A stretch of DNA of 64,000 nucleotides. It comes from an uncultured Enterobacterales bacterium. Lineage in GTDB: Bacteria > Myxococcota_A > UBA796 > CAJQPC01. Position numbers and translations under genes: made by a program. Shown here piece by piece: positions 2,681-64,000 of this stretch; within the stretch, counting starts at the first letter, position 1, and every line of letters begins with the position of its first letter. The DNA is taken from NCBI GenBank assembly GCA_964604675.1, contig CAZSAT010000010.1, forward strand, positions 10,771 through 74,770, written 5' to 3'. The notes beneath the pieces are model-generated. The model saw nothing but the letters and a program-made list of their open reading frames with translations. It searched no databases and was not told the origin of the DNA.

Positions 2681-2701
2681 GCCCGCGGATAGGCCTCGGT
2701 C

Positions 2702-29113: not shown

Positions 29114-29122
29114 GACCCGCGC

Positions 29123-43116: not shown

Positions 43117-43138
43117 CTCCTGCGGCTAACCTCTCCGG

Positions 43139-44626: not shown

Positions 44627-44663
44627 TCGAGCTTCGCGGTACGCTGGGCGCTGTGGAGGTCCG

Positions 44664-46967: not shown

Positions 46968-47000
46968 CGGGTTAAGCCGGCCGCCGTCCCAGGAGGACCG

Positions 47001-47963
47001 ATGGCCGAGCGGATCTTCGTCACAGGCGCGACCGGGCGCATCGGACGCCCCCTGTGCGCAACCTTGGTGGCAGCCGGGCACAGCGTGGCCGGTCTCTCCC
47101 GCGACGACGAGGGCGAAGCCGCGCTTCGGGCGCTGGGGGTCGACACGATCCGTGGCGATCTGTCGGACACGGAAGCTCTTCGCCGTGGCATCGAGGGCGC
47201 CGATCGCTTGATCCACCTCGCCGGCGGCGTGCGCGGCCGGCAGGGTGAGTCCGCCGCGGAGCTGAACACCGAGGGGACCCGGCAGGTGCTCGAGGTCGCC
47301 CGCACCTCGCCCGCGTTGAAGGCCTTCGTGCTCGCATCGACCTGTGCCGTGTATGGCGATCGGTCCTGGCTGTGGGTGGAGGAGGACTTCCGCCCGTCGC
47401 CGAACACGGAGTACGGCGCGTCGAAGGTCAAGGCCGAGCAGCTCGTGCTCGACGCCTCGGCCGAAGGGCTGCCGGGCGTGATCGCGCGGATCGCCGCGGT
47501 CTACGGCCCGGAGTTCCCGTTCACGATGGCCGAGCGCATGCAGCGTGGTGTGGCATGGCTTCCGGGCGAGGGCGGCAACTGCATCCCGCTCGTGCACGTG
47601 GACGACTGCGTGAACGCGCTCATCCTGCTCGCCGAGAAGGGCCAGGCCGGTGAGATCTACCACGTGGCCGATCGCTCTTCTCCGGCGCTCAGGGACTTCT
47701 ACAAGGAAGTCCACGGGCACGTGGGCGGCGAGATGGTCAACTTCTGGTCGACCTGGATTCCGAGCGCCGTGCAGTTCTACCTGGCGCGCAAGAACGACGA
47801 CATCAAGACCAGGCTGGGCAGAAAGCCAAGGTTCACACCCGATAATCTGCGACTCTTCACCAACTCGGTGAGGCTCAAGACCGACCGTCTGGAGCACGAG
47901 CTGGGCTTCCGTTGGCGCTACCCCGACTTCGTCGAGGGCGTGCGTGCGTCGTTCGGCGGCTGA
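47001..47963 (+). CDS. NAD-dependent epimerase/dehydratase (SDR family)
   Basis: MAERIFVTGATGRIGRPLCATLVAAGHSV (Rossmann GxxGxxG), and a YxxxK active site in YGASKVKAEQ. Confidence 0.8.
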   Translation: MAERIFVTGATGRIGRPLCATLVAAGHSVAGLSRDDEGEAALRALGVDTIRGDLSDTEALRRGIEGADRLIHLAGGVRGRQGESAAELNTEGTRQVLEVARTSPALKAFVLASTCAVYGDRSWLWVEEDFRPSPNTEYGASKVKAEQLVLDASAEGLPGVIARIAAVYGPEFPFTMAERMQRGVAWLPGEGGNCIPLVHVDDCVNALILLAEKGQAGEIYHVADRSSPALRDFYKEVHGHVGGEMVNFWSTWIPSAVQFYLARKNDDIKTRLGRKPRFTPDNLRLFTNSVRLKTDRLEHELGFRWRYPDFVEGVRASFGG

Positions 47964-48003
47964 CCGCCGCGACGCCCCCCGGCCACCGACCTGCTCGTCC
48001 GGG

Positions 48004-48032
48004 TTGACCCTGGGTGGGGGCAACCCTTATAA
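48004..48032 (+). promoter_or_regulatory. sigma-70-like promoter candidate (TTGACC, 17 nt spacer, TTATAA) overlapping the palindrome CCTTATAAGG
   Basis: -35 TTGACC at 48004-48009, a 17-nt spacer, then -10 TTATAA at 48027-48032. This is an unusually AT-rich patch in a 70% GC genome, 50 bp upstream of the gene at 48084. CCTTATAAGG (48025-48034) is a perfect 10-bp palindrome. Confidence 0.4.
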
Positions 48033-48083
48033 GGCAAGGACTTTTCTTACCGGTACGGGCAAGACTGCCCCGGAGCGATGCTC

Positions 48084-50927: not shown

Positions 50928-50950
50928 TCGCCGTTCTCGAGGCGCTGGCA

Positions 50951-50985
50951 AGAGAGGCACCCTCCGAGGTGCCTCTCTTCGTTTG
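50951..50985 (+). terminator. rho-independent terminator candidate after the repeat lipoprotein gene
   Basis: An 11-bp perfect stem agagaggcacc / ggtgcctctct with loop tccga, followed by tcgtttgg, 24 bp after the TAG at 50925-50927. Confidence 0.55.
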
Positions 50986-51047
50986 GCAGCACACTTTTGC
51001 TGTTGACGTTTCTCCCATGGTGGGGATACCGTGTCTGTGTCTTGGGC

Positions 51048-51061
51048 TTGAAAGCTTTCAA
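51048..51061. promoter_or_regulatory. perfect 14-bp AT-rich palindrome TTGAAAGCTTTCAA (candidate operator)
   Basis: Self-complementary and AT-rich in a GC-rich intergenic region, about 110 bp upstream of the ORF at 51171. Confidence 0.3.
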
Positions 51062-51102
51062 CGCTTTTGGCCGGGACCTCCTCCATGCTTTGCCGAGTGC
51101 GT

Positions 51103-51113
51103 CCCCCCCCCCC
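51103..51113. repeat. C11 homopolymeric tract in the intergenic region
   Basis: gtgcgt-ccccccccccc-acattcg, immediately followed by cgaggagg (Shine-Dalgarno-like). Confidence 0.7.
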
Positions 51114-51150
51114 ACATTCGGCATTCGAGGAGGCCCGGCCATCTCCTTCT

Positions 51151-51190
51151 GAGCGCCGTCACGGTTCACCGTGACGGCGCTCTTCGTTGG
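51151..51190 (+). other. strong hairpin (14-bp perfect stem, 4-nt loop) followed by TTCGTTGG; a terminator or 5'-UTR structure
   Basis: gagcgccgtcacgg-ttca-ccgtgacggcgctc then ttcgttgg. It overlaps the annotated GTG start of the ORF at 51171. Confidence 0.45.
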
Positions 51191-51974
51191 TGCCCTGGCG
51201 TTTGCCGGTCCTTGGGTGAGGGAGTCCGGATCCTGGTACGCCAAGGCCGCCTACGGCCAGTTCCGCAGCGACAGCTATGTCGACGGGTCCGGCGAGCTCG
51301 TCGAGGGTGTTCGCTTCGTCGGGCACACCGGCGTGCTCTACGGCGAGGTCGGCGTGGCGGAGCGGCTCCAGGTCGTGGCCGCGTTGCCCTGGCAGGTGGC
51401 CACGAACCAGCCCCAGGAGGGCCTGCGGTACCACCGTGCGGGCGTCGGTGACGTGGAGGTCGGCGCAGGCTACGCGCTCTCGCGCGCCCTGCCGGTCACG
51501 GCGCACGTGGTGGCCACGGTCCCGGGCTACGGCGACGCGGTGCAGGGTGTGGGCGACCAGCAGGGCCGATTCCCAGCGCTCGGTGATGGTCAGGTGGACG
51601 TGACGGCGGAGCTCTCGGCCGGCCGGAGCGGTTCGCGCGCCGGCGCGGCCTGGTGGGCGGAGGCCACCGGCGGGTACGTGCGTCGCACCCAGCTGTCGTT
51701 GGCCTCCACACCGCCTGCCGACTTCGCCGACGGTGTGGAGTACGTCGGCAAGGTCGGCGTGGCCCCCGCGTGGGGCTTCGCTGCGCTGTCGGCCTCCGGG
51801 CGCGGCCGGGTGACGGACCACGCCGAGACCAGGACCTGGCACCAGCTGGGCGCCACCCTCGCGGTGGACGTCGCGGAGGGCCTAGCCCTCGAGGCGTCCG
51901 CGAGCTGGATCTACGCTGCCAGGGCGTCATCGCGCGGCGGCGCGGGCTTCCTCGGGGTCAGCCACCGCCGCTGA
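51171..51974 (+). CDS. putative outer-membrane beta-barrel protein (start uncertain)
   Basis: Alternating hydrophobic/polar beta-strand-like periodicity with Gly/Tyr/Trp-rich strands (YAKAAYGQFRSDSYVDGSG, VGDVEVGAGYALS, EYVGKVGVAPAWGFAALSASG, ASASWIYAA). The N-terminus ALFVGALAFA-GPW resembles the end of a signal peptide, but no upstream in-frame Met exists before the stop at 51150. Confidence 0.4.
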   Translation: MTALFVGALAFAGPWVRESGSWYAKAAYGQFRSDSYVDGSGELVEGVRFVGHTGVLYGEVGVAERLQVVAALPWQVATNQPQEGLRYHRAGVGDVEVGAGYALSRALPVTAHVVATVPGYGDAVQGVGDQQGRFPALGDGQVDVTAELSAGRSGSRAGAAWWAEATGGYVRRTQLSLASTPPADFADGVEYVGKVGVAPAWGFAALSASGRGRVTDHAETRTWHQLGATLAVDVAEGLALEASASWIYAARASSRGGAGFLGVSHRR

Positions 51975-51980
51975 GCGCGA

Positions 51981-53723
51981 TCAGTCGGTGACGTAGAGGT
52001 CGTCGAAGGCCGCGCTGCCCGGGTCTTTCGCGGCGTCGAACACGGCCAGGGCCGGGTAGCCACGGCCCACGTCGACGTCCACGGTGGTGGTGAAGGCGGT
52101 CACCCCCTCGACGCGGAAGGCGATGGTGCTGCCGCTGACCTCCATGCTCAGGCGGTTCGGCAGGTCGGTGCCCGGCATGAGGTAGGGCGCGAAGCTCGCG
52201 TCGGTGAGGGGGACGTAGACACCGGCTTCGATGCGGCCCGCGTTCCAGCGGACCTTCGTGTCCTCGGAGATGCCGAAGAAGTACCCATCCGTGAGGCCCT
52301 GGGTGTCGCGGCTGACGTAGAGACCGATGATCGAGCCGCCGTCGCCCGCGGTGCGCGTGACGTCGGCGTCGAAGCGCCACTCGCCGCTCAGGTAGTGGTC
52401 CTCGTAGACCAGGATGTCCCAGGCGTCGTCACCGTCGCCCACGTGCTCGATGTCGTCCGGTCCGTCCTGGAATCCGTTCTCGTCGGGCACCCAGCCGAAG
52501 CTGCCCGCGTCGAGGTCCATGATGCCCGGCAGGGCCTGGTCGCAGGGCAGGCTTCCCTCGTCGAAGAGCAGATCGCAGTCGTTGTCCACCCCATCGCAGG
52601 TCTCGGTGGCCCCCGGGTACACGGTGACCAGGGCGTCGTTGCAGTCGCTGTTGCAGTCCACCCCGTCCCCGTCGCGGTCGTCCACGTCGTCCAGGTCGCA
52701 GTTGCGGTCGACCCCGTCGCAGAACTCCGAGAGGCTCGCGTGGATCTGGGGGTCGAGGTCGTCGCAGTCGGCGCCTCCACAGGCGACGTCGTCGTCGCCG
52801 TCCCGGTCGATGTCGGCGTCGTCCACGGTGCCGTTGCAGTCGTTGTCGGCCCCGTCGCCGCAGATCTCGTCGAAGTTCACGTTGCTGGTGGGGTCGAGGT
52901 CGTCGCAGTCGGCCCCTCCGCACTCCGCGGCCACGGTGCCGTCTCCGTCGTTGTCCTGGAAGTCGGCGCGCCCGTCGCAGTTGTTGTCGACCCCGTCGTC
53001 GTTGCAGAAGTCGTCGGCGTCGGGGTGGATGGCGTCGTCGTCGTCGTCGCAGTCGTCACCGCCGCAGGACTCCGCCGTGAAGCCGTCGCCGTCGGCGTCC
53101 AGATCGCCCGTGTCGCCATCGCAGTCGTGGTCGAGCTCGTCGCACTGTTCCTCGGCATCCGGGTGCGTGGTGTCGTCGGCGTCGTCGCAGTCGCTCCCGC
53201 CGCAGGCGGCGGAGAGGTGGCCGTCGAAGTCGGCGTCGTCGCGATCGGTGCTGCCGTTGCAGTCGTTGTCGACGCCGTCGAAGCAGTTCTCGGTGGCCTC
53301 GGGCGAGATCAGGGGGTCCAGGTCATCGCAGTCCTCGCCCCCGCAGGCGATGGCTGCGTAGCCGTCGCCGTCATCGTCCACGTCGTCGACCTTGCCGTTG
53401 CAGTCGTCGTCGACGGCGTTGCAGATCTCGGTCGCGCTGGGGTTCACCGTGTCGTCGTCGTCGTTGCAGTCGCTCCCTCCGGGGCAGCCTGCGGCGTAGT
53501 GACCGTCTTCGTCCAGGTCGACGATCACCTCGTCAGCGATGCCGTTGCAGTCGTTGTCCACCCCGTCGCAGATCTCGAGCGCGTCGGGATGGATCGCGTC
53601 GTCGAGGTCGTTGCAGTCGCTGCCGACGGGACAACTCGCCGCCGAGGAGAAGCCATCGCCGTCGAGGTCGACGGCGCAGGGGTCGGTGCTGCACGCCAGC
53701 AAGAGGAGGGGGCCGAGGGGCAT
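51981..53723 (-). CDS. lipoprotein with about 9 MopE-like 'putative metal-binding motif' Cys/Asp repeats and a C-terminal lectin-like (ConA/LamG-like) domain
   Basis: A lipobox (MPLGPLLLLACSTDPC). Repeats of the form DCNDxDDxxxPxAxExCDGVDNDCNGxxDE match the MopE-type pattern (for example GSDCNDDDDTVNPSATEICNAVDDDCNGKVDD). The C-terminal 180 aa are non-repetitive and beta-rich. Confidence 0.75.
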   Translation of the reverse strand: MPLGPLLLLACSTDPCAVDLDGDGFSSAASCPVGSDCNDLDDAIHPDALEICDGVDNDCNGIADEVIVDLDEDGHYAAGCPGGSDCNDDDDTVNPSATEICNAVDDDCNGKVDDVDDDGDGYAAIACGGEDCDDLDPLISPEATENCFDGVDNDCNGSTDRDDADFDGHLSAACGGSDCDDADDTTHPDAEEQCDELDHDCDGDTGDLDADGDGFTAESCGGDDCDDDDDAIHPDADDFCNDDGVDNNCDGRADFQDNDGDGTVAAECGGADCDDLDPTSNVNFDEICGDGADNDCNGTVDDADIDRDGDDDVACGGADCDDLDPQIHASLSEFCDGVDRNCDLDDVDDRDGDGVDCNSDCNDALVTVYPGATETCDGVDNDCDLLFDEGSLPCDQALPGIMDLDAGSFGWVPDENGFQDGPDDIEHVGDGDDAWDILVYEDHYLSGEWRFDADVTRTAGDGGSIIGLYVSRDTQGLTDGYFFGISEDTKVRWNAGRIEAGVYVPLTDASFAPYLMPGTDLPNRLSMEVSGSTIAFRVEGVTAFTTTVDVDVGRGYPALAVFDAAKDPGSAAFDDLYVTD

Positions 53724-53745
53724 CGTCCCCGGATGTTACCTGTCC

Positions 53746-55353
53746 GTGATGGCGGTGACCCTCGACGGGCAGAACCTGACCCTGGAGCACGTGGTCGCGG
53801 TCGCACGCGGGGGCGAGGCGGTGGCCGTGGCGGCGGCGTCCTACGAGGAGATGCGGCGTTCGCGAGCCTGGGTGGAGGATCTGGCCGAGGGCCGGCGTGT
53901 CGGGCCCGGCGGTGAGCCGCTCGTGGTCTATGGCATCAACACGGGCTTCGGCTCGCTCGCGCGGGTGCACATCCCCTTCGAGCAGGTCCGTGAGCTGATG
54001 CGCAACCTCATCCGTTCCCACGCGGCGGGCATCGGTCCGTCGGTGGACGCGGACGCGGCGCGGGCGATGGTGCTCTTGCGGGCCAACGCGCTCACGCGCG
54101 GCGCGAGCGGTTGCCGCCCGGCGCTCGTCGACTTGCTCGTGGGCTTGTTGAACGCCGGCATCACGCCGGTCATCCCGTCCCGTGGGAGCTGCGGCAGCTC
54201 GGGGGATCTCGCGCCGCTGTCGCACCTGGGGCTCATCGTGAGCCACGCTGTCGACGACCCCGACGAGGAGACCGGCTCCGCCTGGGTCGACGGCGAGCTC
54301 GTGAGCGGCCGAGAGGCGCTCGCTCGCCGCGGGCTCGTGCCGCTCACCTTGGGGCCCAAGGAGGGCTTGGCGATCAACAACGGCGCCCAGCTCACGACCG
54401 CGATCGCGGCCCTGGCCGCCTACGACGCGGAGCGCCTGGTGCTGCTCGCCGAGGTCGCGGCCGCGATGAGCATCGAGGCCCTTCGGGGCGTGACCCGCGC
54501 GTTCCATCCCGCCGTGCACGCCTTGCGGCCCTATGCGGGGGCCCTGGCCTGTGCCGCGAACCTGCGCCGGCTGCTCGACGGCTCGGGGCTGACCGACACC
54601 GTGCCCGGGAAGGTGCAGGATGCCTATTCGCTGCGCTGCACCCCCACCGTGCTGGGGGCCGCGCGCGACACACTCGCCCACACGGGCAGCCAGATCCGGG
54701 TGGAGCTGAACGCGGTCACCGACAACCCGGTGATCTGCCTCGACGCCGACGAGGACGACGCCTTCTCGGCCGGCCTGTTCCACGGGGAGCCGGTGGGCAT
54801 CGCCGCCGACGTGATGAAGATCGCGGTGGCCGAGCTGGCGAGCCTCTCGGAGCGGCGCTTGTTCCGCCTCACCACCGGCAACCTGAGCGCGCGGCTCCCG
54901 GCCAGCCTGCGTCGCGACGATCGCCCGGGGGTCGGGCTCTTCGGTCTCCAGACCACGGCGGCGGCGCTCGTGAGCGAGAACAAGTCCCTCGCGTGGCCTG
55001 CGAGCGTGGATTCCCTGCCCACGTGCGAGGACCAGGAAGACCACGTGGCCATGTCCACCACCGCGGCTCGGCGGGCTGGCGAGGTGGTCGGGAATGCCCG
55101 CGCGGTCATCGCGATCGAGCTCCTCTGTGCCGCGCGGGCCCTGCGCTACCGCCTCGACGCGGAGCCTGGGGTGTCGCTGGGCCGTGGCACACGAGCTGCG
55201 CTGGACGTGCTCGAGTCGGGGTTGCGCGACGACGACGAGGCCGTGCCGTCGGAGCGGGTCACCGAGGTGTTGGCGCTGATGGGCGAGCACACGCTGATCG
55301 ATGCGGTCGAGGCGGCGGCTGGTCGACTCCTTCGGGTTGGAGAGTCGCCTTGA
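53746..55353 (+). CDS. aromatic amino acid ammonia-lyase / aminomutase family (HAL/PAL/TAL, MIO-enzyme family) protein; the MIO triad reads Ser-Ser-Gly
   Basis: The N-terminus (MAVTLDGQNLTLEHVVAVARG), YGINTGFGSLA (catalytic Tyr loop), RSHAAGIG and the MIO region GSCGSSGDLAPLSHLG (family consensus GSVGASGDLAPLAH). GTG at 53746 or ATG at 53749, only about 22 bp from the divergent gene start at 53723. Confidence 0.85.
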   Translation: MMAVTLDGQNLTLEHVVAVARGGEAVAVAAASYEEMRRSRAWVEDLAEGRRVGPGGEPLVVYGINTGFGSLARVHIPFEQVRELMRNLIRSHAAGIGPSVDADAARAMVLLRANALTRGASGCRPALVDLLVGLLNAGITPVIPSRGSCGSSGDLAPLSHLGLIVSHAVDDPDEETGSAWVDGELVSGREALARRGLVPLTLGPKEGLAINNGAQLTTAIAALAAYDAERLVLLAEVAAAMSIEALRGVTRAFHPAVHALRPYAGALACAANLRRLLDGSGLTDTVPGKVQDAYSLRCTPTVLGAARDTLAHTGSQIRVELNAVTDNPVICLDADEDDAFSAGLFHGEPVGIAADVMKIAVAELASLSERRLFRLTTGNLSARLPASLRRDDRPGVGLFGLQTTAAALVSENKSLAWPASVDSLPTCEDQEDHVAMSTTAARRAGEVVGNARAVIAIELLCAARALRYRLDAEPGVSLGRGTRAALDVLESGLRDDDEAVPSERVTEVLALMGEHTLIDAVEAAAGRLLRVGESP

Positions 55354-56807
55354 TCACGCTCGGCGAACGCCTCACCATCGCCCAGGTGGCGGCGGTGGCC
55401 GCCGGCGCCGAGGTGGTGCTCGGCGAGGATGCTCGGGCTCGCATGACCGCGAACCACGCCGACTTCGTCGCCATGGGCTCGCCGGACGTGCTGGAGATGA
55501 AGGAAGCGTGGCTCACCGGGCCGCGCGCCGGCGAAGCTTCGCCGTGGGAGCGGCTCGTCGCCTTCGTGAGGGGTCACTGCGCCGGCGTCGGCGCACCGCT
55601 CCCCGTGCCGGCCGTCCGGGCCATGCTAGCCTGTCGCGCGCAGGTCCTGGCCCACGGGCTGAGCGGTTGCCGTCCCGAAGCCGCTGAACAGCTCGTCGCC
55701 ATGCTGCAGGCCGGCGTGCACCCCGTGGTGCCCTCCCAGGGATCGGTCGGCGCGGCGGGGGATCTGGCTCCCCTGGCGCACGCCGCACGGGTGGCGTTCC
55801 GCCTGGGAGGACAGGCCGTGCGCGACGGACGGCTGCTCGACAGCGACGCCGCAATGGAAGGTCTGCCGGAGTTCCGCCCGGAGCCCAAGGAGGCCCTGTC
55901 GGTGATCAACGGAGCCACGCTGACCGTGGCGCTGGCCGCGCTCGCGTGCCACCAGGCCCGCGGGCTCCTGCGGACCGCCGAGGTGGGGCTGGCCATGTCG
56001 ATGGAGGTGGTCCGCGCCAACACCGGCATGGTGCGCTTCGAGGTGCTCCAGAGCCGCGGCCACGGCGGCGGCGTGCGGGTCGGACGCAGGCTGCGCGAGC
56101 TCCTGAGCGAGTCCACGCTCGCGTCGGTGGACCGCCGTCCCGACGCCTTCTCGATCCGCTGCGCGCCCGCGGTGCTGGGCAGTGCCTGGGATGCGCTGAG
56201 CCACATCGAGGAGGTGGTGGAACGCGAGCTCAACGGCGCGTGCGACAACCCGCTCGTCATCGCCCGCGAGCTGGTCGATGGGGGGAACTTCCACGGAGCT
56301 CCGGTCGCACTGGCCATGGACCACCTGAAGACCGCGCTCACCCAGGTCGCCAGCATCGCCGAGCGCCGGATCTTCCGCATGACCTACGGCGTGCTCACCG
56401 GCCTGCCGAGCTTCCTGGTGGAGAGCACGGGGCTGAACTCCGGCTTCATGCTGGCCCAGTACACGGCCGCGTCGCTCGTGAGCGAGTGCAAGGGCCTCTC
56501 GATGCCCGCGAGCGTGGATGCCATCCCCACCGGGCAGCACCACGAGGACCACGTGAGCATGGGGCCCATCGCGGCCCGCGGTGCCCTGCGCATCTGCGAC
56601 GCGCTGGCGGAGGTGCTCGCGATCGAGATCCTGGTGGCGGCTCAGGGGCTGGAGTTCCGCATGGAGGAGGCGCCGCTCGCGCCGCGTGTCGAGGCCTTGC
56701 GTGCGCGGGTGCGCGAGGTCGTGCCGCGCTGGCGTGAGGACCGGGTGCTGCACCTCGATCAGCAGGCGGTGGCCGCAGGCGTGCGGGCCGGCCGCTACGA
56801 GGACTGA
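55350..56807 (+). CDS. HAL/PAL-family paralogue, apparently catalytically dead (MIO Ser to Ala, Tyr-loop lost)
   Basis: TTG at 55350 overlaps the upstream TGA (cTTGAtc). MITLGERLTIAQVAAVAAGAEVV aligns to the family N-terminus. The MIO region reads SQGSVGAAGDLAPLAH (Ala-Ala-Gly). The Tyr loop is replaced by WLTGPRAGEA. RGHCAGVG is retained. Confidence 0.75.
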   Translation: MITLGERLTIAQVAAVAAGAEVVLGEDARARMTANHADFVAMGSPDVLEMKEAWLTGPRAGEASPWERLVAFVRGHCAGVGAPLPVPAVRAMLACRAQVLAHGLSGCRPEAAEQLVAMLQAGVHPVVPSQGSVGAAGDLAPLAHAARVAFRLGGQAVRDGRLLDSDAAMEGLPEFRPEPKEALSVINGATLTVALAALACHQARGLLRTAEVGLAMSMEVVRANTGMVRFEVLQSRGHGGGVRVGRRLRELLSESTLASVDRRPDAFSIRCAPAVLGSAWDALSHIEEVVERELNGACDNPLVIARELVDGGNFHGAPVALAMDHLKTALTQVASIAERRIFRMTYGVLTGLPSFLVESTGLNSGFMLAQYTAASLVSECKGLSMPASVDAIPTGQHHEDHVSMGPIAARGALRICDALAEVLAIEILVAAQGLEFRMEEAPLAPRVEALRARVREVVPRWREDRVLHLDQQAVAAGVRAGRYED

Positions 56808-56812
56808 CTGAC

Positions 56813-57361
56813 TCAGCTCGTGCGGCGGAGTGCCGACGTGAGGTCACGCACCCGGGCCTTCAGGGCATCCCGCTCGGCGGTGACCATGGCGATGTGCGCG
56901 CGGAGGTCCTGGTCGCCCGTGCCGTTCCGGGTGGTGGCCAGGGTCTCCTCGGCCTTGCGGGCGCGGCTCTCGGCGTTGGCCCGAGCGTCCTCGGTGGTCT
57001 GGAGGACCTTCTTGAGCTCGGCGAGCTTGCCGCCAACCTTCTCCATGCGGTCGCGGAAGTCCCGGTTGGCGCGGCCCTGCTTGGAGATGACCCGGTGCAG
57101 GTGGCGGAGGCTCTCCTCGGGGTCGTCGATGCCGTCCTCGCTCGGGATCAGCTCGTTGGTCAGGGTGACCAGCTGCTCGCAGATCGCGGTCTGTCGCTCG
57201 AGCATCTGATCGCGGACCTGGGCCTCGTCCTGCCAGGAGTTCAGGGTCTCGCGCAGACGATCCGCCTCTTGCCGAAGCAGGTTCGACTGGTACCAAGCAA
57301 CGCCCGAAGTCAGCAGGATTCCTATGCTGACACCGAGCACAACCCAGGAAAGAGGCGTCAT
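56813..57361 (-). CDS. membrane-anchored coiled-coil protein, hypothetical
   Basis: MTPLSWVVLGVSIGILLTSGVAWY (N-terminal TM), then heptad-like charged sequence (RQEADRLRETLNSWQDEAQVRDQMLERQ...). The track ORF 56813..58096 over-extends. Confidence 0.5.
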   Translation of the reverse strand: MTPLSWVVLGVSIGILLTSGVAWYQSNLLRQEADRLRETLNSWQDEAQVRDQMLERQTAICEQLVTLTNELIPSEDGIDDPEESLRHLHRVISKQGRANRDFRDRMEKVGGKLAELKKVLQTTEDARANAESRARKAEETLATTRNGTGDQDLRAHIAMVTAERDALKARVRDLTSALRRTS

Positions 57362-57572
57362 GCAATCCCTTGTGACGTCTGGTCCACGTCCTCTTGAAGC
57401 TACCACAATCCAGGACGCCTCCGAACAGGGCACGGAACTTGCTATGAACGGGTCGCTCCTCTCCTCCCCGGCCCCAGGTGGACGCTGACACGCCCGGATC
57501 CCACCGATCCGGTCGCCCGACGCCACCTGTCCTTCGCGGACGCGCGTAGCGTGCTTCGCACCGGAGTGTCCG

Positions 57573-60500
57573 ATGCCGTCCTTCACCCTCCTCGTCCGCT
57601 TGCCTGCAGAGCGTGCTGCGCTCTGCGCGGTGGTCACGGCTGCCGGTGGCACGCCCGTGATCGACCTCACCGCCGGGGCGACGGTGCCCGAGGTGCCGGA
57701 AGGCGCCTGGATCCGAGTGCGCGCCGGCCAGCCGGCGCCCGGCACGGGCCCGGTGGTGTTGGTGGGTGGTCGCAAGCCCATCGTGGGCCGCGCCTGCTGG
57801 TTGGAGACCGTGCAGGCGGGCACGACGCCGGAGGGCTTCGAGGGCGTGATCCTCCGCGGTCGCGAGGCCGGCGGTGCCGCGGGGACCGCCGACGGGCTGT
57901 CCCTGCTCGCCGACCACCACGGGCCCGCCATCCTCGACGCGGGCGTCGGCCCGGCCACCACGGCGTCCGCGGCGGCCCTGGGTGCGCGGGGTGTGGTGCT
58001 GTTCGAGCAGGTGCTGGCGTTCGTCGAGCTGGGCCTCCCGGCCGCGCTGCGCGCGCGCCTCGCCAAGGCGGCCGACACCTCGACGCGCGTCGTCAAGGGC
58101 TACCGCCTGTGGGCCTCGCCGCTCGCGCCCGTCGTGCGCAAGCTGGCGGGCGGCGCCGATCCCGATAGCCTCGAGGCCGGGTGGTTCTCGGGCGACCCCG
58201 CGCTGGTGGCGTGGCCGGTCGGCCAGGGGGTCACGCTCAGCGGTGAGCTTGCGCGTCGCCACGAGACCCTCGCGGACTGCCTCCGCGCGTTCCGAGCGGC
58301 TGCGGAGAACTGGTCGGTGCGCGTGGGCGATGCACGCGCCTGGGACGACGTGGATGCACCGCGGGCGCGCACCGCCACGGCGCTGCGCGGTCGCAACGGC
58401 CGGAGCCGTGTCGCGGAGCCTTCGGGTGCCGTGGGCAGCGCGGTGCTCTGGCAGGAGGCGGTGTGGGAGGGCCAGCCGGTGGCGGGCACCCCGCTGATCG
58501 CGGCCATGGCCACGGGCTGTCCGGTGGCGGCGCCCGCCGCGGAGCTGGTGCGTGCCCGCGCCGAGGCCGGCATGCCGGAGGCGGCGCCGCCCGCGCCCAC
58601 ACCCGCCGCCGCGGCGGTGGCCGTCGCCGTGGAGCGCGCCGAGGAGCTGGTCGCGATCGTGGGCCTCGGCTGCCGCCTGCCGGGGGCGAACTCGGTCGAC
58701 GAGTACTGGGACAACGTGCTGGCCGGGCGGAACCTCATCCGCGAGGTGCCCGCGGACCGTTGGGACGCCAGCCTGTACTGGGACAGCGATCGGAACACGC
58801 CGGACAAGACCTACACACGCATCGGTGGCTTCATCACCGACTTCGCCTTCGAGCCGCGGGCGTTCCGCATCCCGCCCAAGGTCGCGCGGGTCGTGGACCC
58901 GGTCCAACAGCTGGCCCTCGCGGCCGTGCACGACGCGCTGCTCGACGCGGGGCTGGGCCCCGACGCCAGCGTCGACCGGAGCCGCATCGCGGTCATCCTC
59001 GGCAACTCGATGGGTGGGGAGATGAAGGACTCCTACGCGCTTCGGGTGCACTTCCCGGCCGTGCGCAAGGCGCTCGGCGCGATCGAGGGCTTCGCGGAGC
59101 TGCCGGCCGCTCAGCAGGCGGCCATCCTCGACACCCTCGAGGCCAAGGTGAAGGCGGATCTGCCGCCGATCACCGAGGACTCGATGCCCGGCGAGCTGTC
59201 CAACGTGATCGCTGGACGGGTGGCCAACGCCTTCGATCTGGGCGGCCCGAACTTCACGACCGATGCGGCGTGCGCCAGCTCCATGGCGGCCCTCCAGTCG
59301 GCCGTGAAGGGCCTCCAGGACCACGACTACGACTACGCGGTCACCGGCGGTGTGGATCGCTCGATGGACCCCGCCACCTACACCAAGTTCTGCAAGATCG
59401 GCGCGCTGTCGCCCGATCATTCGGCACCCTTCGACGCGTCGGCGAACGGCTTCGTGATGGGCGAGGGCGCCGGCATCCTGGTGCTGAAGCGCCTGTCGGA
59501 CGCCGAGGCCGACGGCGACCGCATCTACGCGGTGATCCGCGGCATCGGGGCCAGCTCCGACGGCAAGGGCAAGGGCATCACCGCGCCGAACATCGTGGGC
59601 CAGAAGCGCGCCCTGCGTCGTGCCTACGCCGACGCCGGACTGGACCCGGTCGAGGTCGACCTCGTGGAGTGTCACGGCACCTCCACGGTCGTGGGCGACA
59701 AGGTCGAGGTGGAGGCGCTCAGCGAGGTCGTGGGCGCCGGTCGGCGCGGTGACCGTGGCCCGATCCGCATCGGCAGCGTGAAGTCCCAGATCGGCCACCT
59801 GAAGAGCGCCGCGGGCGCGGCCGCGACCATCAAGATGGCGATGGCCCTGTACACCCGCACCCTCCCGCCGACCATCAACTTCGAGAAGTCGCGCCCCGAC
59901 GTGCCCTTCGACCAGGTCCCCCTCGCCGTGCAGGACACCCGTCAGCCGTGGGTGGCCGATGGCTGGCAGCGTGTGGCCGGCGTGAGCGCGTTCGGCTTCG
60001 GTGGCACGAACTTCCACGTGGTGCTCGCCGAGCACGTCGCTGCCCCCGAGGTGGCTGTGCGCGCCATGCCGGTGCGCGCGGAGGTCGTGGAGCGTCCGCT
60101 GCCCGACGGCATCTGGGCCGTGTCGGCGGCCACCGAGCAGGAGCTCTCGGAGCGCCTCGCGGCGGTGGAGCGTGGCGAGGCCACCCCCTGGGAACCGGCG
60201 CGTCGCTTCCGGCTCGCCGCGGCGGCCGACACGGTCGAGGAGCAGCGTGCCCAGGTCGCGAAGGTGCGGAAGTCGATCGCCAAGAACCGTGGGCACGAGC
60301 TCCTGCGCATGCGCGGCGTGCACCTCGAGGACGAACCCTGCGACGGCCAGCTGGCCTACGTCTTCACGGGCCAGGGAAGCCAGTACATCGGCATGGGTCT
60401 CGACCTCGCCGCGCACTACCCCGTGGTGGCGGCCACCTTCGCGGAGGCCGACCGGGTGATGTCCCAGGAGCTCGGGCGTCCGCTCAGCGACTACATCGCC

Positions 60501-63500
60501 GGTCAGGTGCACGACGACGCCGACGTGTCCTTCGAGGCGCTCCGCGCGACCGAGATCAGTCAGCCCGCGACCCTCACGGTCGACGTCGCCATCCTCCGGC
60601 TGCTCGCCGCGCACGGGGTGATGCCCGACATGGTCGCCGGGCACAGCCTCGGTGAGTACGGCGCTGCGGTAGCCTCCGGCATGATGGACTTCGCCTCGGC
60701 GCTGATGGCGGTGAGCGCCCGCGGCCGCGAGATGGCCAACGTCAAGCTCGACGACTTCGGCAAGATGGCCGGCATCGCCGCAGGCGTCGACGTCGTGCAG
60801 GAGGTGCTCGCGGAGGTCCCCGGCTACGTCGTGGCCGCCAACAAGAACTGCCCCACGCAGACCGTGATCGCCGGAGAGTCCGACGCGGTCGAGGCCGCGA
60901 GCGAGGCCTTCCGCGGGCGGGACATCACGGTCTACCCGTTGCCGGTCTCCCACGCGTTCCACAGCCGCATCGTGGCCCCGGCCAGCGAGCCCCTCCGCCG
61001 GGTCCTGGAGCGGCTGGAGCTGAAGGCGCCGGTCCGTCGGATCACCACCAACGTCACCGCCGACTGGTACCCCACCGGCCCGGACGCCCGCGAGTGGGCC
61101 TTGGACAACCTCGCCGCGCAGGTGGCGAGCCCGGTCGAATGGATCGCCCAGGTGGAGCGCATGTATGCGTCGGGCGCGCGGGTGTTCGTGGAGTGCGGCC
61201 CGAAGCGGGCGCTGACCGGCTTCAACGTGGCCATCCTCAAGCGCCGGCCTCACCGCGCGCTCTACACCAACAACCCGAAGACGGGCGGGGTGCGCTCGTT
61301 CCGTGACAGCCTCGCCGGGCTCCTCGCGCTCGGCTTCCCCGTGAAGGCCCAGCCGGCCACGTCGGTGCCCGACCTCTTCACGATCCCCGAGGCGCGCTTC
61401 GCCACGAGTGAGCAGCTGGTGACCCGGGACACGCCCACCGCCGCGGATCCCGAGGTCGCCCAGGCCCTGATCCAGATGGTGAGCGTGCGCACCGGACTCC
61501 CCGCCGACGAGATCGACCTCGACTGGGAGCTCGAGGCCGACCTCGGCGTCGACACGGTCCGGCAGGCCGAGATGGTGGCCGAGGCGCGGAAGCGCTTCCG
61601 GCTGGCGCGCGAGGCGGGCTTCCTGCTCTCCGACCACCGCACCACGCGGCAGCTGGTCGACTACTTCGCCAGCCGGCTCGGCCGCATGAAGGCCGTGTAC
61701 GACCGCAGCCAGCCGGCCGTCGCGCAGCAACCTCGAGGGGTGGCGGAGCTCCACGCCGAGCAACCGCTCGAGGTCAACACGCCGGTGCTCGCCGGAGCTG
61801 CAGTCAGCGGCTTCCTCGAGTCCGCGGCCCGCAGCGGCCTCGCGGGGCTCGACCCCGAGGCGTTCGCGAGCGCTCTGTTGCCGTCGGTGCAGGGCCTCCT
61901 GTCGGCGTCCTGGGAGGCCTTCCGATCCGCCGAGCGCCCGCCGGCCATCCAGCCGACGGCTGCGCCCACGGCCACGGTCGTCACGACGGCCGCCGCGGAG
62001 CCGGTTCGTGTCGTGTGCACGGGGGTCTCGATGGGCCTTCCCGGCGGGGAAGCGGTCTTCGCCGACGACAACGTGGAGGCGATCCTGCGCGGCGACAACC
62101 GCATCGGGAAGGTCCCCGCCGCCATCCAGGACCGCCTGCTGGACAAGGGCCTGGTCCGCCTGGTGAAGGACGAGGCCGGACAGGGCTCCTTCCTCCCGGT
62201 CAGCGAGCGCGACCAGGTCATCCAGCTCGCCGGCCGCGCCGAGCACTTCGATCTGGTGGCCGACTACGGGGTGGCGGCGAGCTACGCGCGTGCCCTGGAC
62301 CGCACGACGCAGCTGGCCTTCGCGGCAGGCATCGAGGCGCTGCGCGACGCGGGCGTGCCGTTGGTGCGCACCTTCAAGACCACGACCACCGGGAAGCAGG
62401 TCCCGCTGGGCTGGGCGCTCCCCGAGTCCTGGCGTGCGGGCACCGGCATCGTGTTCGCGTCGGCGTTCCCCGGCTACGACTACTTCGCCCGCCACCAAAG
62501 GGAGGATGGGAAGCTCGACGAGGGTCGCTTCGACCGCCGCTTCCTCTTCCAGATCCTGAGCATGGGCCACTCGCAGTTCGCCCAGTTCATCGGCGCCCAG
62601 GGGCCGAACACCCAGGTCAACGCCGCGTGTGCGTCGACCACGCAGGCGATCTCGGTGGCCGAGGACTGGCTGCGCCTGGGCCGCGCCGAGCGCGTGATCG
62701 TGGTCGGTGCCGACGACGTCACGAGCGATCAGCTGCTCGAGTGGATCGGCGCGGGCTTCCTCGCCGCGGGCGCGGCCACCACCGAGGCCGACGTCACGAA
62801 GGCGGCGCTGCCCTTCGACCGCCGCCGTCACGGCATGATCATCGGCATGGGCGCGGTCGGGCTCGTGCTCGAGCGTGGCGCGGACGCGGAAGCGCGCGGG
62901 GTCACGCCCATCGCGGAGCTGATCTGCTCCCGGGTGGCGAACTCGGCGTTCCACGGCACGCGGCTGGACGTCGGCCACATCGCCGGCGAGTTCCGCGCGC
63001 TCATCGGCACGGCCGCCGAGCGCCTGGGCACCACGCCCGAAGCGATGGCGTCGCGCACCATCTTCATGTCCCACGAGACCTACACCCCGGCTCGGGGTGG
63101 CTCGGCGGGCGCGGAGATCGCGGCCCTGCGCGCGGCCTTCGGCGAGGGGGCCGACGAGGTCGTGGTCGCCAACACCAAGGGCTTCACGGGGCACGCCATG
63201 GGCGCGGGCATCGAGGACGCCGTGGTGCTCAAGGCGCTGCAGCACCAGACCGCTCCGCCGATCCCGAACCTGAAGGAGCCGGACCCGGAGCTCGGGAACC
63301 TGCGCCTGTCGCCGGGTGGAGCCTTCGAGCTGGACTACGCCGTGCGCCTCGCAGCGGGCTTCGGTTCCCAGCTCGCGCTGACGGTGTGGAAGGCGATCGG
63401 CAAGGCCGACGACCGCGTGGACGCGCCGCGGCACGCCGCGTGGCTGCGCGAGGTCACCGGCTGGGCCGGCGTGGAGACCTTCGTGCAGGACCGCGCCCTG

Positions 63501-64000
63501 CGCATGCGGGAGGCGGAGGTGGTCGAGGCGCCGGTGGTGGCGGTCCCCGCGGCCGCCGCGGCCGCCGTCGCCGCGCCCGCCGCGCCCGGGAGCGAGGTGC
63601 TCGACGCCCTGCTCGACGTCATCGGCCAGCACACCGGCTACGGGCGCGAAGACCTGGAGCTCGACTACGAGCTCGAGGCGGACCTGGGCATCGACACGGT
63701 GAAGCAGGCGGAGATCTTCGCCGAGGTGCGGGACCGCTTCGGGGTGGCCCGCGACGACGGCTTCCAGCTCGCCGACTACCCGACCATCCGCGCGCTCGCG
63801 GCCTGGCTCACCGAGCAGACGGGTGGCGCGCCGGACGTCGCGGCCCTGGCCCCGGCCCCCGAAACGCCCGCCGCGGCCGCCCCGTCGGCGCTGTCGACAC
63901 CCGAGGCCTCGGACGACCAGGTGCTCGAGGTGCTGCTCGGCGTGATCGGCGAGCACACGGGCTACGACCGGGAGGACCTCGACCTCGACTACGAGCTCGA
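57573..64000 (+). CDS. type I polyketide-synthase-like megasynthase, 5'-partial view (continues past the window end). Layout: unknown N-terminal domain, KS, malonyl-type AT, carrier-like domain, KS2, and at least 2 carrier-like domains
   Basis: Frame 0 from the ATG at 57573 is open to the window end. The ORF track omits it because no stop falls inside the window. KS1 has the Cys-His-His triad in DAACASSMAALQS, ECHGTST and GHLKSAAGAA. The AT motifs are GQGSQ, GHSLGEYGA and HAFHS (malonyl-type). KS2 has AACASTTQAI and TKGFTGHAMGAG. Three carrier-like segments (D(L/Y)ELEADLG(V/I)DTV(R/K)QAE) at about 61.5, 63.7 and 63.95 kb all have Thr (acg) at the expected Ser position. Confidence 0.8.
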   Translation, partial: MPSFTLLVRLPAERAALCAVVTAAGGTPVIDLTAGATVPEVPEGAWIRVRAGQPAPGTGPVVLVGGRKPIVGRACWLETVQAGTTPEGFEGVILRGREAGGAAGTADGLSLLADHHGPAILDAGVGPATTASAAALGARGVVLFEQVLAFVELGLPAALRARLAKAADTSTRVVKGYRLWASPLAPVVRKLAGGADPDSLEAGWFSGDPALVAWPVGQGVTLSGELARRHETLADCLRAFRAAAENWSVRVGDARAWDDVDAPRARTATALRGRNGRSRVAEPSGAVGSAVLWQEAVWEGQPVAGTPLIAAMATGCPVAAPAAELVRARAEAGMPEAAPPAPTPAAAAVAVAVERAEELVAIVGLGCRLPGANSVDEYWDNVLAGRNLIREVPADRWDASLYWDSDRNTPDKTYTRIGGFITDFAFEPRAFRIPPKVARVVDPVQQLALAAVHDALLDAGLGPDASVDRSRIAVILGNSMGGEMKDSYALRVHFPAVRKALGAIEGFAELPAAQQAAILDTLEAKVKADLPPITEDSMPGELSNVIAGRVANAFDLGGPNFTTDAACASSMAALQSAVKGLQDHDYDYAVTGGVDRSMDPATYTKFCKIGALSPDHSAPFDASANGFVMGEGAGILVLKRLSDAEADGDRIYAVIRGIGASSDGKGKGITAPNIVGQKRALRRAYADAGLDPVEVDLVECHGTSTVVGDKVEVEALSEVVGAGRRGDRGPIRIGSVKSQIGHLKSAAGAAATIKMAMALYTRTLPPTINFEKSRPDVPFDQVPLAVQDTRQPWVADGWQRVAGVSAFGFGGTNFHVVLAEHVAAPEVAVRAMPVRAEVVERPLPDGIWAVSAATEQELSERLAAVERGEATPWEPARRFRLAAAADTVEEQRAQVAKVRKSIAKNRGHELLRMRGVHLEDEPCDGQLAYVFTGQGSQYIGMGLDLAAHYPVVAATFAEADRVMSQELGRPLSDYIAGQVHDDADVSFEALRATEISQPATLTVDVAILRLLAAHGVMPDMVAGHSLGEYGAAVASGMMDFASALMAVSARGREMANVKLDDFGKMAGIAAGVDVVQEVLAEVPGYVVAANKNCPTQTVIAGESDAVEAASEAFRGRDITVYPLPVSHAFHSRIVAPASEPLRRVLERLELKAPVRRITTNVTADWYPTGPDAREWALDNLAAQVASPVEWIAQVERMYASGARVFVECGPKRALTGFNVAILKRRPHRALYTNNPKTGGVRSFRDSLAGLLALGFPVKAQPATSVPDLFTIPEARFATSEQLVTRDTPTAADPEVAQALIQMVSVRTGLPADEIDLDWELEADLGVDTVRQAEMVAEARKRFRLAREAGFLLSDHRTTRQLVDYFASRLGRMKAVYDRSQPAVAQQPRGVAELHAEQPLEVNTPVLAGAAVSGFLESAARSGLAGLDPEAFASALLPSVQGLLSASWEAFRSAERPPAIQPTAAPTATVVTTAAAEPVRVVCTGVSMGLPGGEAVFADDNVEAILRGDNRIGKVPAAIQDRLLDKGLVRLVKDEAGQGSFLPVSERDQVIQLAGRAEHFDLVADYGVAASYARALDRTTQLAFAAGIEALRDAGVPLVRTFKTTTTGKQVPLGWALPESWRAGTGIVFASAFPGYDYFARHQREDGKLDEGRFDRRFLFQILSMGHSQFAQFIGAQGPNTQVNAACASTTQAISVAEDWLRLGRAERVIVVGADDVTSDQLLEWIGAGFLAAGAATTEADVTKAALPFDRRRHGMIIGMGAVGLVLERGADAEARGVTPIAELICSRVANSAFHGTRLDVGHIAGEFRALIGTAAERLGTTPEAMASRTIFMSHETYTPARGGSAGAEIAALRAAFGEGADEVVVANTKGFTGHAMGAGIEDAVVLKALQHQTAPPIPNLKEPDPELGNLRLSPGGAFELDYAVRLAAGFGSQLALTVWKAIGKADDRVDAPRHAAWLREVTGWAGVETFVQDRALRMREAEVVEAPVVAVPAAAAAAVAAPAAPGSEVLDALLDVIGQHTGYGREDLELDYELEADLGIDTVKQAEIFAEVRDRFGVARDDGFQLADYPTIRALAAWLTEQTGGAPDVAALAPAPETPAAAAPSALSTPEASDDQVLEVLLGVIGEHTGYDREDLDLDYEL

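What the first reader, a model, noticed from the sequence alone, without database searches (positions are those of the whole stretch)
53746..56807. Translationally coupled pair of MIO-enzyme (HAL/PAL/TAM) paralogues; the second is a predicted pseudo-enzyme
Gene 1 has the family hallmarks (YGINTGFG catalytic-Tyr loop, SHAAGIG), but its MIO triad reads Ser-Ser-Gly (GSCGSSGDLAPLSH) rather than Ala-Ser-Gly. Gene 2 starts with a TTG overlapping gene 1's TGA. It keeps the fold signatures (GHCAGVG, GDLAPLAH) but has Ala-Ala-Gly at the MIO position, so no Ser is available for dehydration. The Tyr loop is replaced by WLTGPRAGEA. MIO enzymes are homotetramers with active sites built from several chains. 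A dead paralogue that is co-translated suggests an obligate hetero-oligomeric lyase or aminomutase, which is not a commonly described arrangement. Its position next to a PKS suggests it supplies a cinnamate or coumarate starter, or a beta-amino acid.
Basis: partly seen in the sequence, partly recalled or inferred. Interest (0 to 1): 0.75.

Follow-up and report, generated by a model that had tools for sequence, protein, structure and literature searches.

The report
Paired live and dead histidine-lyase subunits
Two overlapping genes encode a complete histidine ammonia-lyase-type enzyme and a conserved partner that has lost every catalytic group; the pair recurs across uncultured Myxococcota and probably forms a two-subunit version of an enzyme so far described only with identical or all-active subunits.

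Summary
Gene 1 (alpha, 53749/53746..55353) is a full-length HAL-family protein. It has the Tyr loop, the SH motif, and Ser-Ser-Gly at the MIO position. Gene 2 (beta, 55350..56807) starts at a TTG inside a TTGA overlap. It has Ala-Ala-Gly, no Tyr loop, and Phe in place of Tyr280.

Beta is not a decaying copy:
- All 120 nearest homologues lack the MIO serine and the Tyr loop.
- dN/dS is 0.10, against 0.15 for alpha.
- Its model has the HAL fold (TM 0.91).

All 120 nearest alpha homologues carry GSCG-SSG. In 26 of 28 other loci alpha sits directly upstream of beta. Most overlaps are 4 nt (NTGA), usually with an SD-like motif.

Losses are reciprocal. Beta lost the catalytic residues. Alpha lost canonical pocket positions (the AQ-Y-TAA tyrosine, GNFH) that beta keeps.

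Best reading: an obligate alpha/beta hetero-oligomeric HAL-type lyase with composite active sites. This is inferred, not demonstrated.

The PKS-starter idea is not supported. Alpha has HAL-type specificity residues, the PKS is PfaA-like, and it is present in only some loci. SSG is a recurrent minor variant. I found no published description. I rate it a new variant of a known kind.

The parts
53749..55353 (+). alpha: catalytically complete HAL-family subunit (534 aa from ATG 53749; GTG 53746 is an alternative start)
   Evidence: PF00221 full length, E 1e-160. HutH TIGR01225 scores 501.7 bits. Aligned to 1gkm. P0121 is the identical called protein.
53929..53952 (+). alpha Tyr loop YGINTGFG (residues 62-69; Tyr62 = PpHAL Tyr53, the catalytic base)
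   Evidence: Y-G-x-x-T-G-x-G is present in 120 of 120 alpha homologues.
54016..54030 (+). alpha SHAAG (SH histidine-recognition motif; His92 = PpHAL His83)
   Evidence: The SH motif as the HAL specificity determinant is from PMC11432326.
54196..54204 (+). alpha MIO-forming triad Ser151-Ser152-Gly153
   Evidence: Aligned opposite Ala-Ser-Gly of 1gkm. GSCG-SSG is present in 120 of 120 homologues and 21 of 21 locus orthologues.
54934..54966 (+). alpha degenerate pocket segment GLFGLQTTAAA (canonical and beta: GFMxAQYTAAx)
   Evidence: Alpha is relaxed here: entropy 1.36, against 0.06 in beta and 0.16 in canonical HALs.
55339..55342 (+). SD-like GGAG, 8-11 nt upstream of the beta start, inside the alpha coding sequence
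   Evidence: An SD-like motif occurs in 21 of 27 loci, against a 12.6% background.
55350..55353 (+). TTGA overlap: beta start TTG and alpha stop TGA
   Evidence: An NTGA overlap is found in 18 other loci.
55350..56807 (+). beta: conserved non-MIO HAL-fold subunit (485 aa)
   Evidence: PF00221 from profile position 70. AF2 pLDDT 87, pTM 0.90. TM 0.91 to HAL 7tqr. dN/dS 0.098.
55485..55550 (+). beta segment DVLEMKEAWLTGPRAGEASPWE, which replaces the Tyr loop (residues 46-67)
   Evidence: No YGxxTGxG in 120 of 120 beta homologues. A conserved D[IV]L..K..WL.G motif takes its place. This is the most relaxed region of beta.
55752..55760 (+). beta Ala135-Ala136-Gly137 at the MIO position (no Ser to dehydrate)
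   Evidence: None of the 120 homologues has Ser here.
56148..56150 (+). beta Phe267 in place of PpHAL Tyr280
   Evidence: Invariant in alignment A1. F at 0.99, against Y at 1.00 in alpha and canonical HALs.
56442..56474 (+). beta canonical pocket segment GFMLAQYTAAS (Met = PpHAL Met382)
   Evidence: The Met is conserved in bacterial HALs (PMC11432326).
56813..57361 (-). convergent 182-aa membrane/coiled-coil protein lying between beta and the PKS (context only, not part of the pair)
57573..64000 (+). PfaA-like polyketide/PUFA-type synthase, cut by the window end (context only; present after the pair in about half of the loci)
   Evidence: TIGR02813 PfaA 691 bits. Domains. Distribution.

Best explanation
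Alpha and beta are the two subunits of an obligate hetero-oligomeric (most simply alpha2beta2) histidine-ammonia-lyase-type enzyme.

- Alpha makes the MIO electrophile from Ser-Ser-Gly. It also carries the catalytic Tyr loop, the SH motif, Asn195, Gln277, Tyr280, Arg283 and Glu414.
- Beta cannot make MIO and has no catalytic Tyr. It is a structural subunit that is co-translated with alpha through the NTGA overlap.
- Beta supplies the canonical pocket residues that alpha has lost (the GFM-x-AQ-Y-TAA helix and the Asn of GNFH) to alpha-centred active sites.
- The result would be two working sites and two vestigial sites per tetramer.
- The likely reaction is L-histidine (or a close imidazole analogue) to urocanate plus ammonia.

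Shown: sequence features, conservation, gene coupling, selection on beta, and reciprocal loss.
Inferred: the physical complex, its stoichiometry, which chain feeds which site, and the substrate.
For: 1. Pairing. Alpha lies immediately upstream of beta in 26 of 28 other loci at 50-88% identity. Eighteen have a 4-nt NTGA overlap and most of the rest overlap by 8-19 nt. Three of three alpha proteins chosen independently of beta also have an overlapping beta downstream.
2. Translation signal. An SD-like motif precedes the beta start in 21 of 27 loci, against a 12.6% background.
3. Beta is selected. dN/dS is 0.098, against 0.149 for alpha. There are 79 invariant columns in a 25-sequence alignment. 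The HAL-fold model is confident.
4. Each family is uniform. 120 of 120 beta homologues lack the Ser and the Tyr loop. 120 of 120 alpha homologues have GSCG-SSG and the Tyr loop. Each family is monophyletic.
5. Reciprocal degeneration at 156 canonical-invariant columns. Beta lost the Tyr53 loop, Ser143, Gln277 and Tyr280. Alpha lost the Asn of GNFH, the AQ-Y-TAA tyrosine, and Gly/Ser/Ala positions of the 387-407 segment plus C-terminal Arg/Asp positions. Beta keeps these at 0.96-1.00.
6. HAL active sites are built from three monomers (PMC11432326). The position equivalent to the AQ-Y tyrosine (PcPAL I460, by my manual alignment) is a pocket residue (PMC11427684).
7. HAL-type specificity. The SH motif and QEDH are present, and HutH is the best NCBIfam model.
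Against: - No experiment or multimer model shows a complex.
- In L086 alpha and beta are 3 kb apart with two opposite-strand genes between them. In L018 no alpha lies within 5.4 kb upstream or 10 kb downstream. Tight coupling is therefore not absolute.
- Beta keeps His76, Asn187, Arg270 and Glu399 invariant, although these would sit in dead sites. It has also gained an invariant Cys77 and His397. A purely structural role does not explain this.
- Alpha keeps an invariant TCEDQEDH, although in the simple model that Glu would feed a dead site.
- The assignment of residues to chains (Tyr280/Arg283 from a second chain; Met382/Glu414 from a third) comes from my memory of the HAL, TAL and PAL crystal papers. 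It was not checked here.
- No hutU or hutI lies near any locus, so the physiological role of any urocanate formed is unknown.
Confidence: 0.55

Rival explanations
1. Beta is an independent enzyme with MIO-independent chemistry. It acts before or after alpha in one pathway, on a histidine derivative or on urocanate. The genes are coupled only for co-expression, and each protein forms its own homotetramer.
For: MIO-less members of the fold with real activity exist: ergothionase 6s7j and histidine-betaine trimethylammonia-lyase. Other MIO-less lineages appear in the representative search, with an ACG triad. Beta keeps the ligand-binding residues His76, Asn187, Arg270 and Glu399, and adds an invariant Cys77 and His397. 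Alpha and beta are uncoupled in L086 and L018.
Against: The known MIO-less lyases keep the catalytic Tyr as beta-proton acceptor. Beta has lost that loop and also Tyr280. This view does not explain why alpha has degenerated at exactly the pocket positions that beta keeps canonical. The Tyr-loop replacement is the least conserved part of beta, which is unlike a new catalytic loop.
Confidence: 0.2
2. The pair makes an aromatic starter (cinnamate or coumarate) or a beta-amino acid for the neighbouring polyketide synthase.
For: A PfaA-like synthase lies downstream in the window and in L001-3, 5-8, 12, 14, 16, 85 and 94. Lipid-type neighbours occur elsewhere: FA_hydroxylase, acyltransferase and SDR.
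Against: Alpha has SH and QEDH, not the His-Leu of TAL or the Phe-Leu of PAL (the latter two from my knowledge). It scores HutH 502, TAM 333, TAL 261, PAL 250 bits. No CoA ligase or adenylation domain is present. A convergent gene separates beta from the PKS. Many loci have no PKS within 10 kb. PfaA-type synthases are not known to take aryl starters (my knowledge).
Confidence: 0.08
3. Beta is a regulatory or sensor subunit. Its vestigial pocket still binds histidine, urocanate or a metal, and allosterically controls the alpha sites within a heteromer. This is a refinement of the best explanation rather than a true alternative.
For: The binding residues His76, Asn187, Arg270 and Glu399 are invariant while the catalytic residues are lost. 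A Cys77/His397/His398/Glu399/Asp400/His401 cluster is conserved.
Against: There is no direct evidence. The same residues could be kept for folding or packing of the core.
Confidence: 0.12
4. Gene 2 is a decaying duplicate (pseudogene) or an annotation artefact.
For: Loss of Ser143, the Tyr53 loop and Tyr280. A rare TTG start.
Against: The frame is intact for 485 codons. dN/dS is 0.098. More than 120 clusters of full-length homologues share the same losses. A conserved SD-like motif and start overlap are present. The fold model is confident.
Confidence: 0.01

Closest known systems
Bacterial histidine ammonia-lyase HutH (e.g. P. putida HAL, PDB 1b8f/1gkm; T. acidophilum 7tqr)
   Same: Same fold. 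Alpha has the X-Ser-Gly triad, the Tyr53 loop, the SH motif, Asn195, Gln277, Tyr280, Arg283, Phe329 and Glu414. Beta superposes with TM 0.91.
   Different: HutH is a homotetramer of identical active subunits and usually sits in a hut operon. Here there are two diverged paralogues (about 42% identical) with overlapping genes. One lacks all catalytic groups. The other lacks canonical pocket residues. No hutU or hutI is nearby, and both fall below the HutH equivalog cut-off.
MIO-independent trimethylammonia-lyases of the same fold (ergothionase 6s7j; Swoo_3913 histidine-betaine lyase)
   Same: HAL fold without the Ala-Ser-Gly triad, while the imidazole- and carboxylate-binding residues are kept. 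Beta shares these traits.
   Different: Those enzymes keep the catalytic Tyr and act alone. Beta has no Tyr loop, has Phe at Tyr280, and is paired with an MIO-competent partner.
Plant PAL heterotetramers formed by isoforms
   Same: Mixed tetramers of paralogous MIO enzymes. They are mentioned in plant PAL family papers (found; not read in detail).
   Different: All plant isoforms are catalytically complete and each is active alone. There is no dead subunit and no gene coupling.
Enzyme plus dead-paralogue heteromers in other families (trypanosomatid deoxyhypusine synthase DHSc/DHSp; AdoMetDC/prozyme). From my own knowledge; not checked here.
   Same: A catalytically impaired paralogue is required to build or activate shared, interface-located active sites, and the two paralogues show complementary degeneration.
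   Different: Unrelated folds and eukaryotic unlinked genes. Here the genes are bacterial and translationally coupled.

Membership tests
Aromatic amino acid lyase superfamily (PF00221) | Sequence match above the Pfam gathering score | tested here: met
   Alpha 536 bits and beta 428 bits, against a cut-off of 27.3.
MIO-dependent lyase/mutase (alpha) | X-Ser-Gly triad at the MIO position | tested here: met
   Ser-Ser-Gly lies opposite Ala-Ser-Gly of 1gkm. It is invariant in 120 of 120 homologues. Formation of MIO itself was not tested.
MIO-dependent lyase/mutase (alpha) | Catalytic Tyr in the inner loop (PpHAL Tyr53) and Tyr280/Arg283 | tested here: met
   YGINTGFG and DAYSLRC are present.
MIO-dependent lyase/mutase (beta) | X-Ser-Gly triad at the MIO position | tested here: not met
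   Ala-Ala-Gly. None of 120 homologues has Ser.
MIO-dependent lyase/mutase (beta) | Catalytic Tyr loop and Tyr280 | tested here: not met
   The loop is replaced by DVLEMKEAWLTG, and position 280 is Phe267.
Histidine ammonia-lyase HutH (alpha) | SH specificity motif and Glu414 | tested here: met
   RSHAAG and QEDH are present. Their role is taken from PMC11432326.
Histidine ammonia-lyase HutH (alpha) | Score above the NCBIfam HutH equivalog cut-off | tested here: not met
   TIGR01225 501.7 against 539.15. PRK09367 523.9 against 524.
Histidine ammonia-lyase HutH (alpha) | Conserved Met382 / AQY pocket helix | tested here: not met
   The window alpha has GLFGLQTTAAA. The Tyr is replaced in the alpha family consensus (Thr, 0.78) and in every alpha checked individually. 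The Met is kept only in some alpha proteins. Beta keeps GFMLAQYTAAS.
Histidine ammonia-lyase HutH (alpha) | hut operon context (hutU, hutI) | tested here: not met
   No urocanase or imidazolonepropionase is in the window or in the flanks of other loci.
Histidine ammonia-lyase HutH | Homotetramer; histidine to urocanate activity | not testable with these tools
   Needs expression, SEC-MALS or native MS, and an assay at 277 nm.
MIO-independent trimethylammonia-lyase (beta) | No MIO triad, but a retained catalytic Tyr base | tested here: not met
   The triad is absent (met), but the Tyr loop is also absent.
Tyrosine/phenylalanine ammonia-lyase or aminomutase (alpha) | Score above the family cut-off; His-Leu or Phe-Leu selectivity pair | tested here: not met
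   TAM 333 against 501, FlxA TAL 261 against 700, PAL 250 against 519. The selectivity position reads Ser-His.

The most novel reading that the evidence does not exclude
Beta is not merely a scaffold. Its remodelled pocket carries invariant His76-Cys77, Asn187, Arg270 and the Gln396-His397-(His398)-Glu399-Asp400-His401 cluster. This pocket could be a new ligand-binding, metal-binding or catalytic site. The alpha/beta complex would then be bifunctional or allosterically gated: it could sense or further transform urocanate or a histidine derivative, with two kinds of site in one HAL-fold tetramer.
Probability: 0.15. Interest if true: 0.8.

Novelty: new variant of a known kind. Interest (0 to 1): 0.62.

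Why it matters
MIO enzymes (HAL, PAL, TAL and the aminomutases) are textbook homotetramers and are widely engineered as biocatalysts and therapeutics. A natural two-gene version would be a clean bacterial case of complementary degeneration after duplication in an enzyme whose active sites span three chains. In it, one subunit carries the chemistry and the other carries part of the pocket.

Such an enzyme would separate catalytic residues from pocket residues on different polypeptides, which is useful for engineering. It would also show that the 'histidine ammonia-lyase' annotations of both genes in many Myxococcota MAGs are misleading. It can be tested directly by co-expression.

Tried and rejected
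- **Mis-registered alignment.** Rejected. The HMMER alignments to 1gkm, 7tqr and 6v6h place SSG and AAG exactly at the MIO triad.
- **Pseudogene.** Rejected.
- **SSG as an anomaly.** Rejected. It recurs in ordinary HALs.
- **Ergothionase-like active beta.** Considered and judged unlikely, because the catalytic Tyr is missing.
- **PKS starter supply.** Judged unlikely.
- **Recent tandem duplication.** Not supported. In an NJ tree the alpha-beta distance (0.67) exceeds alpha-canonical (0.59) and beta-canonical (0.65). The tree is only distance-based and midpoint-rooted.
- **Literature.** Nine searches for a heteromeric, pseudoenzyme or MIO-less paired bacterial lyase, for SSG triads, and for chain-by-chain active-site composition found no description of such a pair and no usable chain assignment.
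- **Promoter and terminator scan of 53300-57700.** Found nothing.
- **Fused alpha-linker-beta AF2 run.** Not attempted.
Full report
**1. The observation**

The window is about 71% G+C. ORF listing and reading of the junctions confirm two same-strand genes.

Gene 1, called alpha here, opens with GTG 53746 followed by ATG 53749 and ends at TGA 55351-55353. Public gene calls use the ATG, giving 534 aa (P0121).

Gene 2, called beta, starts at TTG 55350-55352, so start and stop form TTGA. It ends at 56807. Independent gene calls on two JGI contigs use the same TTG (P0001, 485 aa).

- Alpha matches Pfam PF00221 over the whole profile (E 1e-160).
- Beta matches only from profile position 70 (E 4e-128).
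- In HMMER alignments to solved HALs, alpha GSCG-SSG-DLAPLSH lies opposite GSVG-ASG-DLAPLAH of P. putida HAL. Its YGINTGFG lies opposite the Tyr53 loop.
- Beta GSVG-AAG-DLAPLAH lies opposite the MIO position of 7tqr and 6v6h.

**2. Beta is a conserved family, not a decaying copy**

A search of 5.8 billion proteins returned full-length homologues at 53-100% identity. All 120 best hits lack Ser at the MIO position; most have AAG and some have VGG, GAG or SAG. All 120 also lack YGxxTGxG, which is replaced by a D[IV]L..K..WL.G motif.

A 25-sequence alignment has 79 invariant columns. These include His76-Cys77, Asn187, Phe267 (the HAL Tyr280 position), Arg270, Asn313-Phe314-His315 and Gln396-His397-x-Glu399-Asp400-His401.

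Against an 88%-identical relative (L088), dN/dS is 0.098 for beta and 0.149 for alpha.

An AlphaFold2 model of beta is confident (pLDDT 87, pTM 0.90). It superposes on HAL structures with TM 0.91 to 7tqr.

In a library of 1.84 billion representatives at 50% identity, the beta type collapses to about a dozen representatives. Bit scores drop from 346 for the last clear full-length beta-type representative to 322 for the best ordinary HAL.

**3. Alpha is also a distinct, uniform family**

All 120 nearest homologues have GSCG-SSG-DLAP and the Tyr loop. Nearly all have xSHAAG and TCEDQEDH. The same holds for 21 orthologues read from loci.

SSG itself is not exotic. It is found in 7 of 60 stand-alone HALs from other phyla and in 12 of 150 representatives.

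**4. The pair is the conserved unit**

Loci were found in two ways: through beta by look-up, and through a scan of 185,579 species genomes. In the genome scan, L005-L024 are beta-type and all come from MAGs labelled Myxococcota or Deltaproteobacteria, or from clearly mislabelled bins.

tblastn shows an alpha orthologue (58-66% identical) directly upstream of beta in all but two loci.

- The junction is a 4-nt NTGA overlap in 18 other loci. Most of the remainder overlap by 8-19 nt.
- An SD-like GGAG, GAGG or AGGA lies 6-16 nt before the beta start in 21 of 27 loci. The background inside alpha genes is 12.6%. The loci are related, so this is not a formal probability.
- Three alpha proteins picked independently of beta each have an overlapping beta downstream.

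The exceptions are L086 and L018. In L086 the two genes are 3 kb apart, with a histidine kinase and a ferredoxin gene on the other strand between them. In L018 no alpha lies within 5.4 kb upstream or 10 kb downstream.

**5. Reciprocal loss**

I aligned 116 alpha, 119 beta and 40 ordinary HAL sequences. Of 156 columns that are at least 90% conserved in ordinary HALs, alpha keeps 96 and beta keeps 86.

- Beta has lost the Tyr53 loop, the SH serine, Ser143, Gln277 (now Pro), Tyr280 (now Phe) and a few others.
- Alpha keeps all of those. It has lost the Asn of GNFH (now Leu), most of the FL..GLNSGFMxAQYTAAS segment, and several C-terminal Gln, Arg and Asp positions. In that segment the Tyr is replaced in the alpha consensus (Thr, 0.78) and in every alpha checked individually, and the Met is replaced in many.
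- Beta keeps these same positions at 0.96-1.00.

Entropy profiles agree. Beta is relaxed around the former Tyr loop and before position 277. Alpha is relaxed at FGLQT (entropy 1.36, against 0.06 in beta) and near the C-terminus.

From the literature:
- HAL active sites are built from three monomers (PMC11432326).
- The SH motif and Met380/382 are associated with histidine recognition, and Tyr52, His82, Asn194 and Glu411 are essential.
- By my manual alignment, the AQ-Y position corresponds to PcPAL I460, a pocket residue (PMC11427684).

**6. Mechanistic reading**

The simplest model is a pseudo-D2 alpha2beta2 tetramer.

- Each alpha-centred site would use alpha's own Tyr loop, MIO, His and Asn.
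- It would take Gln/Tyr/Arg from the second alpha.
- It would take the Met/Tyr helix, and perhaps Glu414, from a beta.
- The two beta-centred sites would be vestigial.

This model explains which residues each family kept and which it lost. However, the assignment of residues to chains rests on my recollection of the HAL, TAL and PAL structure papers and was not verified here. No tool result shows a complex.

Two things remain unexplained: beta's invariant His76, Cys77, Asn187, Arg270 and His397 cluster, and alpha's invariant TCEDQEDH.

**7. Substrate and context**

Alpha scores highest against HutH models (502-524 bits, just under the cut-offs). It scores far lower against the TAM, TAL and PAL models. 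It carries SH and QEDH, so histidine or a close analogue is the likely substrate.

There is no hutU or hutI in the window or in any flank examined.

The downstream synthase is PfaA-like. It is separated from beta by a convergent 182-aa gene, and it follows the pair in only about half of the loci. Elsewhere the neighbours are SDR, FA_hydroxylase, acyltransferase, MoxR/DUF58 and others.

A more frequent upstream block is S8 peptidase, FG-GAP, SDR epimerase and an acidic disulfide-repeat protein. These look like surface proteins and give no functional clue. The aryl-starter or beta-amino-acid idea is therefore not supported.

**8. Comparison with what is known, and novelty**

- Known MIO enzymes are homotetramers.
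- Plant PAL isoforms can mix, but all are active.
- The known MIO-less relatives (ergothionase, histidine-betaine lyase) keep the catalytic Tyr and act alone.

Nine full-text searches found no description of a bacterial two-subunit MIO enzyme with a dead partner. The library lacks most subscription papers, so prior description cannot be excluded.

I rate this a new variant of a known kind. Interest is moderate to high for enzymologists, and the idea is readily testable.

Noticed in passing
window 29114-33397 (+): A 1428-aa protein with no Pfam hit. It is made of roughly 40 tandem acidic Cys-repeats (C-N-D-G-x-D-N-D-G-D-G...D-P-x-C) behind a lipoprotein-like N-terminus. It accounts for the strong AT skew (0.24-0.38) at 30-34 kb.
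   Followed up: partly
window 43130-53723: A block of S8 peptidase, FG-GAP protein, HpnA/OleD-like SDR, 964-aa acidic double-disulfide repeat protein (NF033662), 273-aa unknown and MopE-repeat protein. The S8, FG-GAP, SDR and repeat-protein part recurs upstream of the lyase pair in many MAG loci (L005, 6, 8-10, 13, 15, 17, 85). The functional link is unknown.
   Followed up: partly
window 57573-64000 (+); L085 11680-21130: The PfaA-like synthase has an unusual layout. An N-terminal KS-like piece of about 270-380 aa is followed by KS-AT, a second KS/CLF-like domain, tandem ACPs and KR-DH. It is conserved at 58-71% identity (for the main KS-AT part) in other MAGs.
   Followed up: no
proteins P0259, P0287, P0354: These are other HAL-family lineages with Ala-Cys-Gly at the MIO position but an intact Tyr loop. 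Two of them have Leu at the Tyr280 position. They are candidate MIO-independent lyases, unrelated to the beta family.
   Followed up: no
window 53723-53749 and 56807-56813: Gene packing is very tight. Only 22-25 nt separate the divergent MopE-repeat gene start from the alpha start, and only 5 nt separate the beta stop from the stop of the convergent 182-aa gene. No sigma-70-like promoter or intrinsic terminator was found, so the control elements must lie inside coding sequence or be of another type.
   Followed up: partly
L086 5454-11500: In one widespread lineage (P0077, seen on 33 contigs) alpha and beta are separated by a PAS/GAF hybrid histidine kinase and a 2Fe-2S ferredoxin gene on the opposite strand. 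This is a natural uncoupled variant, useful for testing whether the complex is obligate.
   Followed up: no
L087 8405-10008; L085 11680-21130: In these pilon-polished assemblies the alpha gene (L087) and the PKS (L085) are split into several ORFs. These are probably frameshift errors rather than real fragmentation.
   Followed up: no
window 2693-4639 and 25888-27963: A molybdopterin oxidoreductase with an Fe4S4 domain and a SelB selenocysteine elongation factor lie in the same window. This hints at selenoprotein (formate-dehydrogenase-type) use in this organism.
   Followed up: no
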